From a virus (Duplodnaviria; Heunggongvirae; Uroviricota; Caudoviricetes): a stretch of 16,041 nucleotides of DNA. A program made the position numbers and the translations under genes. Within the stretch, counting starts at the first letter, position 1; every line of letters starts with the position of its first letter. The DNA lies in IMG/VR virus record IMGVR_UViG_3300029877_000022, positions 1 to 16,041 of that record; one strand, written 5' to 3'. Shown piece by piece: positions 11,873 to 16,041 of this stretch. The notes below the pieces were generated by a model. That model saw only the letters and a program-made list of their open reading frames with translations, did not search any database and was not told the origin of the DNA.

Positions 11873-13869
11873 TGGCTAAAGCATGGAAAGATGTTATCGC
11901 CTCTCCACAGTATCAGGCGTTAGCACCAGAACAAAAAGCGCAGGCTCAGGAGCAATACTTCAATGAAGTCGTTGCCCCGCAAGCCGGAGAAAATGCAGAG
12001 CAGGCTAAGCAAGCTTTCTATGCTGCCTATCCATTGCCATCTGTGCAGCCAGTGGAGACACAACAACCAGTATCACAGCAACAACCACAGCAAAGTGGAT
12101 TTATGTCGGATCTTGGTGAAGCCGTGAAAGAAACTGGTCGCGGACTGGTGCAGGCTGGCGTGAACGTGGCAAACATACCTGCATCAGTTGCCGATGCTGT
12201 AACAAGCGCGGCGGCTTGGGCTGGCGGTAAACTCGGAATTGGCGATGGGACATATCACCCAGCGCCACGAGTAACAACGCAGGGATTAGAGCAGGACTTT
12301 GGCCTTCAGCAAGGCGCGCTGACTCCACAAACTACAGAGGGCAGGGTATTTGCTGAGGCATTGCCTTACCTCACTCCTGCTGGCATTGAGAGAGCGGCAA
12401 CACAGGCACCAACACTCGCTGGTAGAATCGCTCAGGGTGCAACTCGCCTTCTCGCTGAAAACGCAGTCGGGTCACTTGCTGCAAATAGTGCGAAAGATGA
12501 TGCGGAAGCACTCGCTACCGATTTAGGCATTGGCGTTCTGGCTGGCGGCGCTATTAACGCTGCCGGACGTGGATTAGGCGCTGCTTATCGTGGCGTTCGT
12601 GGTGCTATTGCACCAGAAGCGCAGCAAGCTATCAGATTTGCAGAGCGTGAAGGAGTGCCTCTGCACACCACAGACCTGTTACAGCCTAGTTCCCGCGTCG
12701 GAAAAATGGCGCAAACGACAGCAGAAAATATCCCCCTGGCTGGCACAAGCGGAATGAGAGCAACGCAACAGGAAGCGAGAAGCCAGTTGGTTCAGAGATT
12801 TGCTGATAAATTCGGTGAGTATGATCCAGCGGTTGTTATTGACAGCCTTAAAGCGAAAACATCAGGAATTCGTCGCGCTGCAGGAAATCGACTGGAGCAG
12901 GTTCAGAATGCTATGGCGGGAATAAACATTCAGCCTGCAAGAGCAATTCAGCAGATTGATACAGAAATATCTAACCTGCAGAAGCTTGGTAAGGTTGCTG
13001 ATAACGAGACTATTTCAAAACTTCAGTCCTATCGTGATGAGCTTGTTCGCAATGCTGGTCCTGATGGTCCGGTAAATCTGGATTTGAAGCAATTAAGCGA
13101 TCTGCGCAGCCAGTTCAGAATGGACGTGAAGGGTGAGCGACCAGTGTTACCAAACCGTTCCGATGCTGCCATTCAGCGCGTTTACAAGGCAATGACCGAC
13201 GATATCAATGGTGCCATTGGTCAGAATCTTGGCAACGATACTCTCCGTAAATATCAGCAGGCCAATGCCGTCTACGCTGACGAAGCCGCGAAACTAAAGA
13301 ATACCAGGCTGAAGAATGTTCTCATGAAAGGCGATCTGACGCCGGAAGTTGTCAACAACATGCTATTCAGCAAGAACAAATCGGAAATTAAGACGCTGTA
13401 TAACTCAGTTGGTCGTGTTGGCAGGGCGCAAATGCGCAATGGCATCATTGGAAAGGCGATGGAGAAATCTGGCGGATCCCCTGACCAGTTCCTTCGGCAG
13501 CTTAACATCCTGCAAAACCAGACTGGCATCACATTTAAGGGGCAGGACGCTGCTTATCTGAAAGGATTAAAAAACTACCTGCAATCTACGCAGCAGGCTG
13601 CAAAAGCGGCAGTAACAACACCCACAGGGCAGCAAACTATCCCGTTCATTATTGGGTATGGGACGGCAATGAACCCTGCGACAACTGGCGCAGCAGTAAG
13701 CTACGGACTTCTTACTCGCGCCTATGAGAGCGAGCCATTCAGAAATGCAATGCTCAGAATGGCAAACACCCCACGCGGATCAACAGCGTTTGAGAAAGCC
13801 ATGCAGCAGGCACAAAAGGCAATTAACGCTATGACGCAGGGGGCTAAGTCTGATGCGTTGTCAGAATAG
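11872..13869 (+). CDS. Ejection (internal virion) protein, P22 gp16-like
   Basis: 665-aa ORF, last gene of the ejection protein trio. TAATG start/stop overlap with the previous gene. Assignment by synteny and size (P22 gp16 about 609 aa). Q/P-rich N-terminal segment. Confidence 0.7.
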   Translation: MAKAWKDVIASPQYQALAPEQKAQAQEQYFNEVVAPQAGENAEQAKQAFYAAYPLPSVQPVETQQPVSQQQPQQSGFMSDLGEAVKETGRGLVQAGVNVANIPASVADAVTSAAAWAGGKLGIGDGTYHPAPRVTTQGLEQDFGLQQGALTPQTTEGRVFAEALPYLTPAGIERAATQAPTLAGRIAQGATRLLAENAVGSLAANSAKDDAEALATDLGIGVLAGGAINAAGRGLGAAYRGVRGAIAPEAQQAIRFAEREGVPLHTTDLLQPSSRVGKMAQTTAENIPLAGTSGMRATQQEARSQLVQRFADKFGEYDPAVVIDSLKAKTSGIRRAAGNRLEQVQNAMAGINIQPARAIQQIDTEISNLQKLGKVADNETISKLQSYRDELVRNAGPDGPVNLDLKQLSDLRSQFRMDVKGERPVLPNRSDAAIQRVYKAMTDDINGAIGQNLGNDTLRKYQQANAVYADEAAKLKNTRLKNVLMKGDLTPEVVNNMLFSKNKSEIKTLYNSVGRVGRAQMRNGIIGKAMEKSGGSPDQFLRQLNILQNQTGITFKGQDAAYLKGLKNYLQSTQQAAKAAVTTPTGQQTIPFIIGYGTAMNPATTGAAVSYGLLTRAYESEPFRNAMLRMANTPRGSTAFEKAMQQAQKAINAMTQGAKSDALSE

Positions 13870-13962
13870 CTTTTCAAACACCAGGAACGTGCAAAAACCA
13901 AATATGTAGAACGCGAGGTTTATCGTATCCCTCTGCATAGGCGATGATACATTTGCTGATTG

Positions 13963-14448
13963 TTATCTGATGTTACTGCTACTGTTGCATGTGACTGTAT
14001 TTCCAAACCCTGAATTGCAGTTTGTGTAAGTTTCAACTCGTGTTGGATAGGGTTGAGTTATAACAGGCTGTCTCGCTTTTTGCTCGATCGCTTGCATTGT
14101 GTTTACAGCCTGATAATTCAATAAAGCCTGCTGGAATGCTTGGCTTTGCGCTATTTGTTGGGCTTGTTCTTGGCTTTGTAGTTGAACATAAAGATTCTGA
14201 AGCTCAAGTCTTGCCTGCGCGTCACTTATCTTGCCATCATCGACACCTTGCCCGAGCATCTTCGCAGCAAGGACATATAACTTAGGTGTTGGTGCTGATG
14301 CCATGCGTGAGTCGTTCTTCACGCTAGCATCAAGGCAATTAGCCATATCGCTAAGCTTTGGATAGCGTTGTTCGCAATTTGCCTGATAGTCGCTAACCTT
14401 TGCGCACCCTGCCAGCAGAAGCGGGATAATTAACAGTGATTTTTTCAT
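13963..14448 (-). CDS. Predicted secreted lipoprotein, function unknown (accessory/moron gene)
   Basis: Minus-strand ORF. I place the start at the ATG at 14446..14448 (MKKSLLIIPLLLAGC) because AAGGAG lies 9 nt upstream and this gives a canonical lipoprotein signal peptide with lipobox LAGC. Mature part has cysteines near both ends and a Q-rich helical middle. No recognisable homologue from memory. Confidence 0.7.
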   Translation of the reverse strand: MKKSLLIIPLLLAGCAKVSDYQANCEQRYPKLSDMANCLDASVKNDSRMASAPTPKLYVLAAKMLGQGVDDGKISDAQARLELQNLYVQLQSQEQAQQIAQSQAFQQALLNYQAVNTMQAIEQKARQPVITQPYPTRVETYTNCNSGFGNTVTCNSSSNIR

Positions 14449-14582
14449 ATGATTAACTCTCCTTATCTTTGCCATCATGGCACTGTTGGGTGTAAATGAG
14501 TTATTAACTCAATCGACAATATCTTCACGAAAATACTTTTTATTATTAAGATCTTTCTGATTCTAACAAAACGGAAAGTAAT

Positions 14583-15002
14583 ATGAAGAGGATTATCGGC
14601 GTCGTTGCTGGCGCTATATTGTTATCTGGGTGCGCAACTATTGTTGGTGATGAAACGCAGCTTGTGCAAGTGAACAGCAATCCTTCTGGCGCGAGCTTTA
14701 AGGTAAAAGATGAATCTGGTGTGATTGTTGCGCAAGGTAAGACTCCACAAGGTGTAACACTCGCCAAGTCAGATGGTAGCTATTTTGGCAAAAAGAGCTA
14801 CCAGATCACTATGGAGAAGGATGGGTACGAACCAGTTACCCTGCCAATCAAAGCCAATGCTAATGGTTGGTATATTGGTGGGAACCTTGTGTTTGGTGGG
14901 TTAATTGGTTGGCTTGCTGTAGATCCATTTAATGGTGGGATGTATACCTTGAAGCCTAAAGAGGCAAATGCATCCCTTATACCGTCCACAAAGCAAGACT
15001 AA
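14583..15002 (+). CDS. Predicted lipoprotein with PEGA-like domain, function unknown (accessory/moron gene)
   Basis: 139-aa ORF with lipoprotein signal MKRIIGVVAGAILLSGC (lipobox LSGC). Middle region NPSGASFKVKD...GKTPQGVTL...YQITMEKDGYEP resembles the PEGA domain pattern. Gly/Trp-rich C-terminal segment GWYIGGNLVFGGLIGWLAVDPFNGGMYTL. Followed by a terminator. Confidence 0.7.
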   Translation: MKRIIGVVAGAILLSGCATIVGDETQLVQVNSNPSGASFKVKDESGVIVAQGKTPQGVTLAKSDGSYFGKKSYQITMEKDGYEPVTLPIKANANGWYIGGNLVFGGLIGWLAVDPFNGGMYTLKPKEANASLIPSTKQD

Positions 15003-15009
15003 TAAATGG

Positions 15010-15033
15010 AACCCACCATCAGGTGGGTTTTTT
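15010..15033 (+). terminator. Rho-independent terminator after the lipoprotein gene, overlapping the mnt stop codon
   Basis: AACCCACC-ATCA-GGTGGGTT hairpin (15010..15029) followed by a T-run to 15033. The poor U-tract on the opposite strand suggests it acts mainly on + strand transcripts. Confidence 0.7.
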
Positions 15034-15270
15034 GTACAAATCCTTCAGCGTATCAAACACCATCTTCTTAACAAGTTCAGACTGCTCATCAGCGATGCGT
15101 TCCGCATCGTCTCGATAGCCTGAAATTTTGGATGGCCTTGATACAGCATCAGTCACTATCTGAACTAATTCTGAATTAAGAGAGCGGCCATTGGATTTGG
15201 CTCGCTGTTTTAGTTTTTCCTTTAATTCGTAAGGTAGCCGCAGATTAAATTGCGGGTCATCTCTTCCCAT
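15019..15270 (-). CDS. mnt: Mnt repressor (ribbon-helix-helix, Arc/MetJ family)
   Basis: 83-aa minus-strand ORF MGRDDPQFNLRLPYELKEKLKQRAKSNGRSLNSELVQIVTDAVSRPSKISGYRDDAERIADEQSELVKKMVFDTLKDLYKKPT. Near-identical in length and sequence to P22 Mnt as I recall it, including the N-terminal beta-strand DNA-reading motif and C-terminal tetramerisation helix. Confidence 0.9.
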   Translation of the reverse strand: MGRDDPQFNLRLPYELKEKLKQRAKSNGRSLNSELVQIVTDAVSRPSKISGYRDDAERIADEQSELVKKMVFDTLKDLYKKPT

Positions 15271-15332
15271 TCTTGATGCCTCGCTCTTGTGAGTGGATCG
15301 GCATCTTATTATCTGCTGGTTGCATCCTCAAT

Positions 15333-15349
15333 AAGACCACGGTGGTCGT
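15333..15349. promoter_or_regulatory. Mnt operator-like 17-bp palindrome
   Basis: AAGACCACGGTGGTCGT has a symmetric core GACCAC-G-GTGGTC (15335..15347). It resembles the P22 Mnt operator as I recall it (AGGTCCACGGTGGACCT). Located in the 135-bp gap between the mnt start and the tailspike start. Confidence 0.6.
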
Positions 15350-15405
15350 ATTTTTTGATTAATAATGAATCACTGCGGCCATTCCTTGTATCTGGAGCAA
15401 ATTAA

Positions 15406-15945
15406 ATGACAGACATTACAGCCAATGTTGTAGTGAGTATGCCTTCGCAACTCTTCACTATGGCTCGTTCTTTTAAAGCCGTAGCCAATGGCAAAATTTA
15501 TATCGGTAAAATTGACACTGACCCGGTAAATCCTGAAAACCAGATTCAGGTCTATGTTGAGAACGAAGATGGTTCTCACGTTCCTGTTGCACAGCCAATC
15601 GTCATCAATGCCGCAGGGTATCCAGTATATAACGGACAGATTGCCAAATTCGTTACCGTGCAAGGCCATTCTATGGCTGTTTATGATGCGTATGGTGCAC
15701 AGCAGTTCTATTTTCCTAATGTGCTGAAGTATGACCCGGATCAGTTTAAACAAAAAGTATTATCAAATGATATGCTAAATATGTCTCCTCTTTATTTTGG
15801 AGCTAAGGGGGATGGGATTAGCGATGATACTGAAGCATTTGTCGCGTTGGAAATGGATATAAAAAATAGGGTTATTGATTTAAGTGGAAGAGCATTTTTT
15901 GTTACTAAAAGTTTTATTGGAAATAGCTATATAAATGGTTCTTAG
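15406..15945 (+). pseudogene. Tailspike gene truncated by IS2 insertion; retains the P22-type head-binding domain and the start of a pectate-lyase-like receptor-binding domain
   Basis: N-terminus [59 protein letters not shown]...[15 protein letters not shown]...[10 protein letters not shown] is the conserved tailspike head-binding domain. It is followed by an AT-rich segment encoding [16 protein letters not shown]. The frame ends at a TAG that is the first 3 nt of the IS2 end (15943), so the ORF is 179 codons instead of the 600 to 700 expected. Confidence 0.85.
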
Positions 15946-16041
15946 ACTGGCCCCCTGAATCTCCAGACAACCAGTATCACTTAAATAAGTGATAGTCTTA
16001 ATACTAGTTTTTAGACTAGTCATTGGAGAACAGATGATTGA
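15943..16041 (+). mobile_element. IS2 left end (IRL, orfA promoter region and orfA start codon); element continues beyond the window end
   Basis: TAGACTGGCCCCCTGAATCTCCAGACAACCAGTATCACTTAAATAAGTGATAGTCTTAATACTAGTTTTTAGACTAGTCATTGGAGAACAGATGATTGA matches the IS2 left end as I recall it, ending with ATGATTGA (MID..., the start of the first IS2 ORF). One possible mismatch to my recalled consensus (CCAGTATC here, CCAATATC recalled). Confidence 0.85.

What the first reader, a model, noticed from the sequence alone, without database searches (positions are those of the whole stretch)
15019..15405. Reduced immunity-I region: mnt retained without arc/ant, with an Mnt operator-like palindrome directly upstream of the tailspike gene
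In P22 the immI region between the ejection genes and the tailspike contains mnt, arc and ant, and Mnt represses the promoter driving arc-ant and reading into the tailspike. Here only mnt is present, and the 135-bp gap between mnt and the tailspike ATG carries the operator-like palindrome (15333..15349). Mnt may therefore directly gate tailspike transcription in the lysogen, or be an orphan repressor left after antirepressor loss. Orphan Mnt could also give immunity against superinfecting phages that carry ant.
Basis: partly seen in the sequence, partly recalled or inferred. Interest (0 to 1): 0.6.

Follow-up and report, generated by a model that had tools for sequence, protein, structure and literature searches.

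The report
Known mnt-only immunity region with operator
This P22-like prophage keeps the small Mnt repressor and its DNA binding site next to the tailspike gene but has no antirepressor, an arrangement already described in phages L, ST64T, SE1 and Gally, so it is largely ordinary.

Summary
An intact 83-aa Mnt (15019-15270, minus strand) lies 135 bp from the tailspike ATG. There is no arc, sar or ant. The palindrome AAGACCAC-G-GTGGTCgT (15333-15349) sits where P22 has its Mnt operator.

It is not a new reduction. The same arrangement occurs in phages Gally (96-97% identical), SE1, ST160 and ST64T (L and ST104 per the literature), in 24 complete E. coli genomes, and in 68 of 68 IMG/VR loci with this Mnt type. 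The literature already describes a mnt-only 'ant moron'.

My additions:
- mnt is under strong purifying selection (dN/dS 0.06-0.13 at dS about 0.5), so it is not a decaying remnant.
- The operator half-sites are fixed while the central base is G, A, T or C.
- This Mnt has Gln6 where P22 has His6, and its half-site differs at two positions. The same pairing controls a strong Pant-arc-ant unit in other phages.
- P22's Pant is degenerate here, and only a Pmnt-like promoter is kept.

Gating of a tailspike promoter by Mnt is therefore unsupported. An autonomous repressor-operator module is the best reading. It may act in trans on phages with the matching operator, but not on P22. Interest is low to moderate.

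The parts
15019..15270 (-). mnt: an 83-aa ribbon-helix-helix repressor. Residues 1-51 form the DNA-binding domain (beta-strand PQFNLRLP, with Gln6 where P22 has His6). Residues 52-83 form the P22-type tetramerisation domain.
   Evidence: It is 98.8-100% identical in 46 IMG/VR and GenBank loci. dN/dS is 0.06-0.13 between E. coli and Salmonella lineages.
15118..15270 (-). The part of mnt that encodes the RHH DNA-binding domain. Together with the operator and promoter region it forms the specificity cassette. A mosaic joint lies near 15117.
   Evidence: The megablast match to epsilon34 (95% identity) covers ORF139 and the 3' part of mnt and ends at query position 1248, which is window 15117. Epsilon34 Mnt is the His6 type with a P22 operator.
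15333..15349 (.). Mnt operator homologue AAGACCAC-G-GTGGTCgT, with dyad centre at 15341 and perfect core GACCAC-G-GTGGTC at 15335-15347.
   Evidence: It occupies the same position as P22 Omnt AGGTCCAC-G-GTGGACCT. Half-sites are invariant apart from 6 single-sequence changes, while the central base is G, A, T or C across 34 distinct intergenic sequences. An identical 20-mer, caatAAGACCACGGTGGTCT, lies at the start of Pant-arc-ant in L086 and L126.
15303..15331 (-). Pmnt-like promoter: -35 TTGAGG (15331-15326), 17-nt spacer, -10 TAAGAT (15308-15303). The inferred start near 15296 puts the operator centre at about -45.
   Evidence: It has the same place and spacing as P22 TTGAGA-17-TATCAT (10 of 12) and as TTGTGG-17-TATGAT in SE1 and ST64T types. 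The epsilon34 record annotates Pmnt/Pant at the homologous place. Promoter activity was not tested.
15296..15326 (+). Degenerate remnant of Pant and the Arc operator. P22's TTGACA is replaced by GATCGG/ATCGGC, and TATATT by TGCATC.
15374..15405 (+). Tailspike leader and ribosome-binding site (GGAG at 15394-15397), conserved with the P22 gene 9 leader.
15406..15942 (+). Tailspike gene 5' part (head-binding domain plus about 65 further codons), cut by IS2.
   Evidence: The GMF054 match ends at 15943. The intact gene is seen in L004 and L001.
15943..16041 (+). Left end of IS2, which disrupts the tailspike gene.
   Evidence: 100% identity to elements annotated as IS3-like element IS2 family.
15008..15033 (.). 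Bidirectional intrinsic terminator between ORF139 and mnt (10-bp stem by the fold, 8 by the pattern scan; -15 kcal/mol; followed by a U-run).
   Evidence: It is annotated as a terminator in epsilon34.
14583..15002 (+). ORF139, a lipoprotein-like moron gene (lipobox LLSGC, weak PEGA match). It is context, not part of the immunity system.
   Evidence: Its homologue GALLYPH_14 is strongly expressed in lysogens.
13963..14478 (-). ORF171, a lipoprotein-like gene (lipobox LLAGC) at the position of P22 sieA but unrelated in sequence. It is context only.
   Evidence: Its homologue GALLYPH_13 is expressed in lysogens.

Best explanation
This is the already-described mnt-only form of the P22-like 'ant moron' (immI region), as found in phages L, ST64T, ST104, SE1, ST160 and Gally. 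It is a self-contained repressor-operator module. Mnt is made from a Pmnt-like promoter and, as a tetramer, binds the dyad AAGACCAC-N-GTGGTCT just upstream of that promoter's -35, centred at about -45.

The divergent antirepressor promoter that this operator controls in complete immI regions has been lost together with arc, sar and ant. The tailspike is therefore expressed essentially as the last gene of the late operon, not from an Mnt-gated promoter.

The DNA-binding domain and operator form a specificity class different from P22's: Gln6 with half-site AAGACCAC, against His6 with AGGTCCAC. The module is kept by selection. The most likely reasons are autoregulation in cis, and repression in trans of the antirepressor promoter of incoming phages that carry the same operator class.

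Shown here: gene integrity, homology, the conservation pattern, purifying selection, loss of Pant, and the existence of cognate Pant-arc-ant units. Inferred: binding, autoregulation and the trans effect.
For: Prior description and distribution:
- The same architecture occurs in Gally (96.4%), vB_EcoP-720R6 (96.8%), SE1, ST160 and ST64T and in 24 complete E. coli genomes.
- It is described in PMC2629481 and PMC8022706.
- All 68 loci with the MGRDDPQFNLRLP-type Mnt lack arc and ant. All 17 loci with the MARDDPHFNFRMP type have both.

Selection on mnt:
- 66 of 68 copies are intact.
- dS is about 0.5 with dN/dS 0.06-0.13 between the E. coli and Salmonella lineages.

Operator:
- Half-sites are fixed while the centre base takes all four values.
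- There are zero changes in 16 operator positions between lineages whose synonymous p-distance is about 0.40.
- The identical operator follows TTGACA-17-CATCAT and precedes arc-ant in L086, L126 and L134. Their Mnt-like proteins share only the N-terminal MARDDPQFNLRM. L217 and L218 show the same with AAGACCACCGTGGTAT.
- Only one operator copy is found in the whole Gally genome.

Promoters:
- A Pmnt-like promoter is conserved. No rightward promoter is conserved.

Specificity:
- The window Mnt strand PQFNLR equals the Arc strand.
- N-terminal residues are known to set Arc/Mnt specificity (Knight and Sauer 1989; Raumann et al. 1995; cited).
- Phage L lacks functional secondary immunity.
Against: - No binding, promoter or reporter data exist for this Mnt type.
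- If Pant is truly gone, P22 precedent gives no clear cis role for an operator at -45. From my memory of Vershon et al. 1987, Mnt stimulates Pmnt only indirectly, by shutting Pant. So the reason the operator is conserved is not explained mechanistically.
- In LF82, the Gally tailspike mRNA rises 6- to 16-fold above the late-operon background in macrophages, together with mnt. Some late-independent transcription therefore reaches the tailspike, and its origin is unknown.
- Deleting mnt gave no phenotype in the one assay done, macrophage survival.
- The cognate ant-carrying phages are known only as five metagenomic contigs of unknown host.
Confidence: 0.7

Rival explanations
1. One reading: a promoter in the 135-bp spacer drives the tailspike gene, and Mnt bound at the palindrome keeps it shut in the lysogen.
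For: The operator lies between mnt and the tailspike at the place where P22 Mnt blocks Pant, whose transcripts can read into gene 9. In the LF82 lysogen, the Gally tailspike is transcribed independently of the late operon: log2 values of 6.7-7.8 against 4.0-4.1 for gene 16 in macrophages. A TGn motif precedes the degenerate -10 in all lineages (TGgTTGCAT, TGgTTATAT).
Against: No sigma-70-like rightward promoter appears in the tool scan, and none of at least 7 of 12 is shared between lineages. The -35 is lost, and the -10 candidates lack either the A at position 2 or the T at position 6. In LB stationary phase both mnt and tailspike mRNA are at prophage background. In macrophages they rise together rather than reciprocally. 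The flanking genes on both strands rise too, which suggests regional derepression or read-through rather than an Mnt switch.
Confidence: 0.15
2. Trans-immunity is the main selected function. The orphan Mnt protects the lysogen from induction by superinfecting phages whose antirepressor promoter carries the AAGACCAC-type operator.
For: Complete mnt-arc-ant units with the identical operator, a strong Pant and a P22_AR-family Ant exist (L086, L126, L134, L217, L218). Purifying selection acts on mnt in prophages that have no ant of their own. mnt stays intact in IS-inactivated prophages (this window, L036, L004).
Against: The cognate phages are rare in the collections searched: 5 contigs, none among isolated phages, and no match to their mnt-operator-arc part in complete E. 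coli genomes. It does not explain why the cis operator is conserved. mnt mRNA is at background in LB-grown LF82. Phage L lysogens show no secondary immunity towards P22, although that is expected if the specificities differ.
Confidence: 0.3
3. Non-functional remnant: mnt and the palindrome are leftovers of a deleted immI region, drifting towards loss.
For: Authors of the phage L genome raised this possibility. Two of 68 copies carry an internal stop, and one of those also has an operator change (L063, L064). Pant has decayed.
Against: dN/dS is 0.06-0.13 at dS about 0.5. The N-terminal 32 residues are invariant in nearly all solo copies and identical between the E. coli and Salmonella lineages. 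The operator half-sites are invariant between lineages, and the Pmnt spacing is kept.
Confidence: 0.05
4. The palindrome is an RNA hairpin or intrinsic terminator (GACCA-CGG-UGGUC plus a U-run) that stops transcription entering the tailspike gene, rather than a protein-binding site.
For: The terminator scan lists it. In the window subtype the stem is followed by GTATTTTTTG. Variation of the central base is also compatible with a loop.
Against: The hairpin is weak (-6.3 kcal/mol, z -0.7; 44 of 200 shuffles fold as well). The T-run is absent in the SE1, ST64T and Gally subtypes. The stem shows no compensatory variation, only invariance. The same sequence sits at a promoter start in L126.
Confidence: 0.03

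Closest known systems
mnt-only 'ant moron' of phages L, ST64T, ST104 (described) and SE1, ST160, Gally (annotated)
   Same: The gene order is the same: ejection genes, small moron genes, mnt on the minus strand, then the tailspike. The spacer is 135-148 bp. The Mnt N-terminus MGRDDPQFNLRLPYELKEK, the operator AAGACCAC-N-GTGGTCT and the Pmnt-like promoter are shared. Gally is 96.4% identical over 13870-15460.
   Different: The window subtype has an 11-nt deletion in the variable stretch right of the operator, and a G in place of T at the last operator position. ST64T and L have a different C-terminal domain. Here the tailspike is cut by IS2.
Phage P22 / epsilon34 immI (mnt, Omnt, Pmnt/Pant, arc, sar, ant)
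   Same: mnt is homologous (75% aa). The C-terminal domain is nearly identical. The operator is at the same place with the same 17-bp dyad geometry and core CCAC-N-GTGG. Pmnt has the same spacing. The location is the same, between gene 16 and gene 9.
   Different: There is no arc, sar, ant or ant terminator. The Pant -35 is lost. The half-site is AAGACCAC rather than AGGTCCAC. Mnt has Gln6, Leu9 and Leu11 instead of His6, Phe9 and Met11.
Uncultured-phage immI units L086 / L126 / L134 / L217 / L218
   Same: The operator class is the same (caatAAGACCACGGTGGTCT), and so is the Mnt beta-strand region ARDDPQFNLRM.
   Different: They keep a strong Pant, arc and a P22_AR-family ant. Their Mnt-like protein is 117-128 aa with an unrelated C-terminal part.
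Arc repressor of P22
   Same: The DNA-reading strand is identical (PQFNLR), and the fold is RHH. The outer operator bases AAGA resemble the TAGA boxes of the Arc operator (from my memory of Raumann et al. 1994).
   Different: The window protein has the Mnt C-terminal tetramerisation domain and an Mnt-type 17-bp operator spacing. It is not followed by ant.

Membership tests
Mnt repressor family (P22 Mnt) | N-terminal ribbon-helix-helix domain | tested here: met
   Pfam Arc PF03869, E 1.1e-21. PDB 1mnt, E 7e-34, over residues 3-77.
Mnt repressor family (P22 Mnt) | C-terminal tetramerisation domain | tested here: met
   Pfam Repressor_Mnt PF11423, E 1.4e-18, residues 53-80. PDB 1qey, E 3e-12.
Mnt repressor family (P22 Mnt) | P22 base-contacting residues Arg2, His6, Asn8, Arg10 (list from my memory of Knight and Sauer 1992) | tested here: not met
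   Arg2, Asn8 and Arg10 are kept, but His6 is Gln. This argues for a different operator specificity, not against family membership.
Mnt repressor family (P22 Mnt) | Binds a 17-bp dyad operator next to its own promoter | not testable with these tools
   A dyad with the right geometry and position is present and conserved. Binding itself needs EMSA or footprinting.
Complete P22-type immI (secondary immunity) region | arc gene divergent from mnt | tested here: not met
   tblastn with P22 Arc finds only the cross-match inside mnt. The 135-bp spacer holds no ORF.
Complete P22-type immI (secondary immunity) region | ant antirepressor gene | tested here: not met
   No tblastn hit in the window, and none with E below 0.05 in the whole Gally genome or the GMF054 relative.
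Complete P22-type immI (secondary immunity) region | sar antisense RNA | tested here: not met
   No Rfam match in 13800-16041 at E up to 1 apart from an unrelated weak hit. I recall that Rfam holds a sar family but did not confirm it, so this test may be uninformative. The DNA that would encode sar is absent in any case.
Complete P22-type immI (secondary immunity) region | Strong Pant promoter overlapping the Mnt operator | tested here: not met
   P22 scores 11 of 12. The window has no rightward candidate at the homologous place.
mnt-only ant moron (L / ST64T / SE1 / Gally type) | mnt directly divergent from the tailspike gene, with a spacer of about 135-150 bp and no arc or ant | tested here: met
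mnt-only ant moron (L / ST64T / SE1 / Gally type) | Shared intergenic sequence with the AAGACCAC-N-GTGGTC operator and Gln6-type Mnt N-terminus | tested here: met

The most novel reading that the evidence does not exclude
The Gln6 Mnt with the AAGACCAC operator is a natural, distinct specificity class of secondary immunity. It has been kept for a long time as a stand-alone 'anti-antirepressor' guard in prophages that have no antirepressor. It protects the lysogen, even an IS-crippled one, from induction by incoming phages of the same operator class. It may be switched on with the neighbouring lipoprotein morons and the tailspike under host-associated conditions such as life inside macrophages.
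Probability: 0.25. Interest if true: 0.5.

Novelty: already known. Interest (0 to 1): 0.3.

Why it matters
The arrangement itself is already described, so its presence here adds little. The comparison does bear on a question left open in the phage L genome paper: whether the lone mnt is a remnant or has a function. Strong purifying selection, a fixed operator with a free centre base, and the same repressor-operator pairing controlling antirepressor genes in other phages all argue for a working module with its own specificity.

If the trans-immunity idea holds, orphan Mnt genes would be a cheap prophage-encoded defence against antirepressor-mediated induction. They would also offer a natural example of repressor-operator co-evolution in the well-studied Arc/Mnt system. 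The necessary strain, LF82 Gally with mnt deleted, already exists, so the question can be tested directly.

Tried and rejected
- **Exact-pattern scan of GTDB species genomes.** The scan for CAATAAGACCACNGTGGTC gave 8 hits, all in unrelated MAGs, so these are chance matches.
- **Quantitative P22 Mnt contact data.** I tried to read Knight and Sauer (1989, 1992) and Man and Stormo (2001). These papers are not held. I obtained only the P22 optimal half-site GTGGACC and the weak effect of its last position. The claim that P22 Mnt would bind the AAGACCAC site poorly therefore remains an inference.
- **Second operator in the phage genome.** Only one site with up to 3 mismatches was found in the 38.7-kb Gally genome. 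Mnt therefore probably has no second full site in its own genome. Gally's Rha/KilAC 'antirepressor' in the nin region is not a P22-type Ant and has no operator nearby.
- **Palindrome as terminator.** The hairpin is weak and the T-run is not conserved.
- **L126-type immI in other collections.** Isolated phages gave only a 67% match to phage Emek. Complete E. coli genomes matched only over the ant 3' end. A distant search instead found a third mnt-arc-ant class with a different operator.
- **ORF171 as sieA.** It shows no similarity to P22 SieA.

Full report
**1. What is there**

The window is the late region of a P22-like (Lederbergvirus) prophage.
- ORF 15019-15270 (minus strand) encodes the 83-aa protein MGRDDPQFNLRLPYELKEKLKQRAKSNGRSLNSELVQIVTDAVSRPSKISGYRDDAERIADEQSELVKKMVFDTLKDLYKKPT.
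- It matches Pfam Arc (E 1e-21) and Repressor_Mnt (E 1e-18).
- It is 75% identical to P22 Mnt and matches the solved Mnt structures 1mnt and 1qey.
- The tailspike head-binding domain starts at 15406, which leaves a 135-bp spacer.
- The inverted repeat AATAAGACCAC/GTGGTCGTATT lies at 15330-15352. A 15-mer version with up to 2 mismatches is unique in the window, against 0.03 expected.
- tblastn with P22 Arc and Ant finds nothing beyond the Arc-to-Mnt cross-match, and no RNA family matches.
- The tailspike ORF is cut at 15943 by the left end of IS2.

**2. Homology with P22 immI**

In P22 (L003) the spacer between mnt and arc reads CAT-gccatcactccaagttagtgtaTTGACAtgatagaagcactctacTATATTctcaatAGGTCCACGGTGGACCTgtattgtgaggtgaatATG. 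The window reads ...ggatcggcatcttattatctgctggttgcatcctcaatAAGACCACGGTGGTCGTatttttt....
- The palindrome sits at the same place, after the same 'ctcaat', with the same core CCACGGTGG and the same 17-bp geometry.
- Each half-site differs at two positions: AGGTCCAC in P22 against AAGACCAC here.
- On the minus strand, TTGAGG-17-TAAGAT (15331-15303) lies where P22 has TTGAGA-17-TATCAT (Pmnt). The SE1 and ST64T types have TTGTGG-17-TATGAT.
- P22's Pant (TTGACA-17-TATATT, 11 of 12) has no counterpart. Its -35 is replaced by GATCGG, and its -10 by TGCATC in E. coli types and TATATC or TGTATC in Salmonella types.
- No rightward candidate of at least 7 of 12 is shared between lineages.
- The last 32 or so nt before the tailspike ATG match the P22 gene 9 leader.

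**3. The arrangement is not new**
- The stretch 13870-15460 is 96-97% identical to phages vB_EcoP-720R6 and Gally, where 'Mnt repressor' is annotated next to the tailspike.
- The mnt-spacer-tailspike part is about 85% identical to Salmonella phages SE1, ST160 and others.
- ST64T has the same Mnt N-terminus, a near-identical spacer and the perfect operator AAGACCACCGTGGTCTT, but a different C-terminal domain.
- Phage L is reported to be 99.9% identical to ST64T.
- Villafane et al. [quoted passage not shown]
- Zaworski et al. [quoted passage not shown]
- Twenty-four complete E. coli genomes, including LF82 (the Gally host), hold at least 80% of 14500-16041.
- In GMF054 (100% identical up to the IS2 junction) and in Gally the tailspike is intact. 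It is followed by unrelated genes and the torT flank, with no arc or ant.

**4. Comparative analysis**

A scan of IMG/VR with the window Mnt returned 80 loci. Together with the GenBank loci and the window, the results were as follows.
- All 68 loci with the MGRDDPQFNLRLP type lack arc and ant. Their tailspike ATG lies 135-148 nt away, or about 424 nt away where a tailspike swap left a scar.
- All 17 loci with the P22-type MARDDPHFNFRMP have both arc and ant.
- 66 of the 68 solo copies are intact.
- Between E. coli-type and Salmonella-type copies, dS is 0.44-0.59 and dN/dS is 0.06-0.13.
- The N-terminal 32 residues are invariant in nearly all solo copies and identical between the two lineages.
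- Among 34 distinct spacers, the 14 half-site positions (AAGACCAC and GTGGTC) carry only six single-sequence changes. The centre base deviates from the majority in 19 of 34 sequences and takes all four values, even among otherwise near-identical sequences. This is the pattern expected for a dyad site read by a symmetric protein that does not contact the centre.
- Between the two lineages, none of the 16 non-central operator positions differs. By comparison, 10 of the 62 spacer positions to the left differ, and the synonymous p-distance is about 0.40.
- The stretch right of the operator is the variable, indel-prone part. The window subtype lacks 11 nt there.

**5. Repressor and operator co-vary**

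An exact-pattern scan of IMG/VR for AAGACCACNGTGGTCT found 36 further solo-type loci, a set of presumably chance hits, and three contigs of a different kind (L086, L126, L134). In those three contigs:
- The 20-mer caatAAGACCACGGTGGTCT follows a strong TTGACA-17-CATCAT promoter.
- It precedes an arc homologue (60-64% identical to P22 Arc) and a P22_AR-family ant.
- The divergent Mnt-like protein begins MARDDPQFNLRM and then continues into an unrelated, longer C-terminal part.

Two more contigs (L217, L218; 73% identical Mnt-like protein) show the same N-terminus with AAGACCACCGTGGTAT. Epsilon34 and P22 pair His6 with AGGTCCAC.

The DNA-binding domain and the operator therefore travel as one cassette. 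The megablast match to epsilon34 (95% identity) covers ORF139 and the 3' part of mnt and stops at window 15117, the boundary between the RHH and tetramerisation domains.

The window strand PQFNLR is identical to that of Arc. Short N-terminal regions and single strand residues are known to set Arc/Mnt specificity (Knight and Sauer 1989; Raumann et al. 1995; cited). A third class occurs in an ETEC prophage: VARNDPQFNVRMP with ATAGTAGTAC-g-GTGCTATCAT, arc and ant. Several specificities therefore exist, and Gln6 alone is not the whole determinant.

That P22 Mnt would not use the AAGACCAC site, and the reverse, is inferred. [quoted passage not shown] It also fits my recollection that P22 grows on L lysogens through its antirepressor.

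**6. Experimental data on a near-identical copy**

Misson et al. 2023 (PMC9928086) studied Gally in E. coli LF82. Values below are log2(fpkm+5) from their S1 and S4 tables.

| Gene | LB stationary | Macrophage 1 h | Macrophage 6 h |
|---|---|---|---|
| Gene 16 homologue | 3.8 | 4.0 | 4.1 |
| GALLYPH_13 | 6.1 | 10.3 | 8.6 |
| GALLYPH_14 | 5.5 | 11.0 | 9.4 |
| mnt | 3.7 | 9.0 | 8.4 |
| Tailspike | 3.9 | 6.7 | 7.8 |
| GALLYPH_17 | 4.1 | 8.0 | 8.5 |

- mnt is induced 40-fold in macrophages, and a mnt deletion did not change survival in macrophages.
- Some transcription reaches the tailspike without the late operon.
- That transcription rises together with mnt and with all neighbours on both strands. 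Both mnt and the tailspike are at background in LB.
- This pattern does not look like a simple Mnt switch on a constitutive promoter. Read-through past the terminator at 15008-15033 (-15 kcal/mol) or regional derepression of this somewhat AT-rich segment (GC 0.39-0.46) are equally possible. The data do not settle the origin.

**7. Interpretation**

The best-supported reading is a stand-alone, selected repressor-operator module of a known kind.
- Mnt is made from the Pmnt-like promoter and binds the dyad centred about 45 bp upstream of the inferred start.
- The antirepressor promoter, arc, sar and ant are gone.
- The tailspike depends on the late operon.

Why the cis operator is kept is the weak point. 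Autoregulation is the natural guess, but P22 precedent is only indirect stimulation through Pant occlusion, as I recall it.

A trans role against phages with the same operator class gives a selective reason for keeping mnt, and such phages exist. They are rare in the collections searched, however.

The remnant and terminator readings are contradicted.

**8. Verdict**

It is partly unsupported (gating of the tailspike) and partly in need of narrowing (immunity only within the same operator class). The arrangement is already known from well-studied phages. The added value is evidence that it is functional and belongs to a distinct specificity class.

Noticed in passing
window 15943-16041; L036; L004 3339-4507: The tailspike gene is cut by IS2 after codon 179. 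A related IMG/VR prophage (L036) has IS1 in tailspike codon 19 or so. The GMF054 relative has lost everything upstream of the ejection genes to an IS911-associated deletion. In all three, mnt and the operator are intact.
   Followed up: partly
window 13963-14478 (-) and 14583-15002 (+): Both genes between the ejection genes and mnt encode lipoprotein-like proteins (lipoboxes LLAGC and LLSGC). ORF171 sits where P22 has sieA but shows no similarity to it. Their Gally homologues are expressed in lysogens and are strongly induced in macrophages, although the Gally paper lists no morons for that prophage.
   Followed up: partly
window ~15117 (inside mnt): There is a mosaic joint at the boundary between the RHH domain and the tetramerisation domain. 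The 3' part of mnt plus ORF139 is 95% identical to epsilon34, which has a His6 Mnt and a full immI. The 5' part of mnt and the operator belong to the Gln6 class.
   Followed up: partly
L028, L040, L050-L054, L059, L063, L064 (mnt-tailspike spacer about 420-430 nt): These loci keep the tailspike leader and the first 14 nt of the ORF (ATGACAGATATTAT). About 280 nt of AT-rich DNA and a different tailspike start follow, which looks like a scar of tailspike replacement. L063 and L064 also carry a stop codon in mnt, and L063 has an operator change.
   Followed up: no
L069-L073: These loci have a P22-type (His6) Mnt but no P22-type operator within 3.5 kb. A second RHH gene and different repeats lie between mnt and an arc-like gene followed by ant. 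This appears to be another immI architecture.
   Followed up: no
L220 2245-3713 (E. coli ETEC1730 prophage): This is a third repressor-operator class in a P22-like prophage. The Mnt-like protein begins VARNDPQFNVRMP, the imperfect dyad is ATAGTAGTAC-g-GTGCTATCAT, and arc and ant are present. Similar regions occur in 74 complete E. coli genomes.
   Followed up: partly
window 15360-15385 versus L001 4480-4520: The window subtype lacks 11 nt present in the Gally subtype, in the variable stretch between the operator and the tailspike leader. The missing stretch is flanked by short direct repeats (CACTG...GCTG).
   Followed up: no
L010 4890-4967: A second fragment 65% identical to the Mnt C-terminal domain (residues 56-81) lies about 1.1 kb from mnt in one IMG/VR locus.
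   Followed up: no
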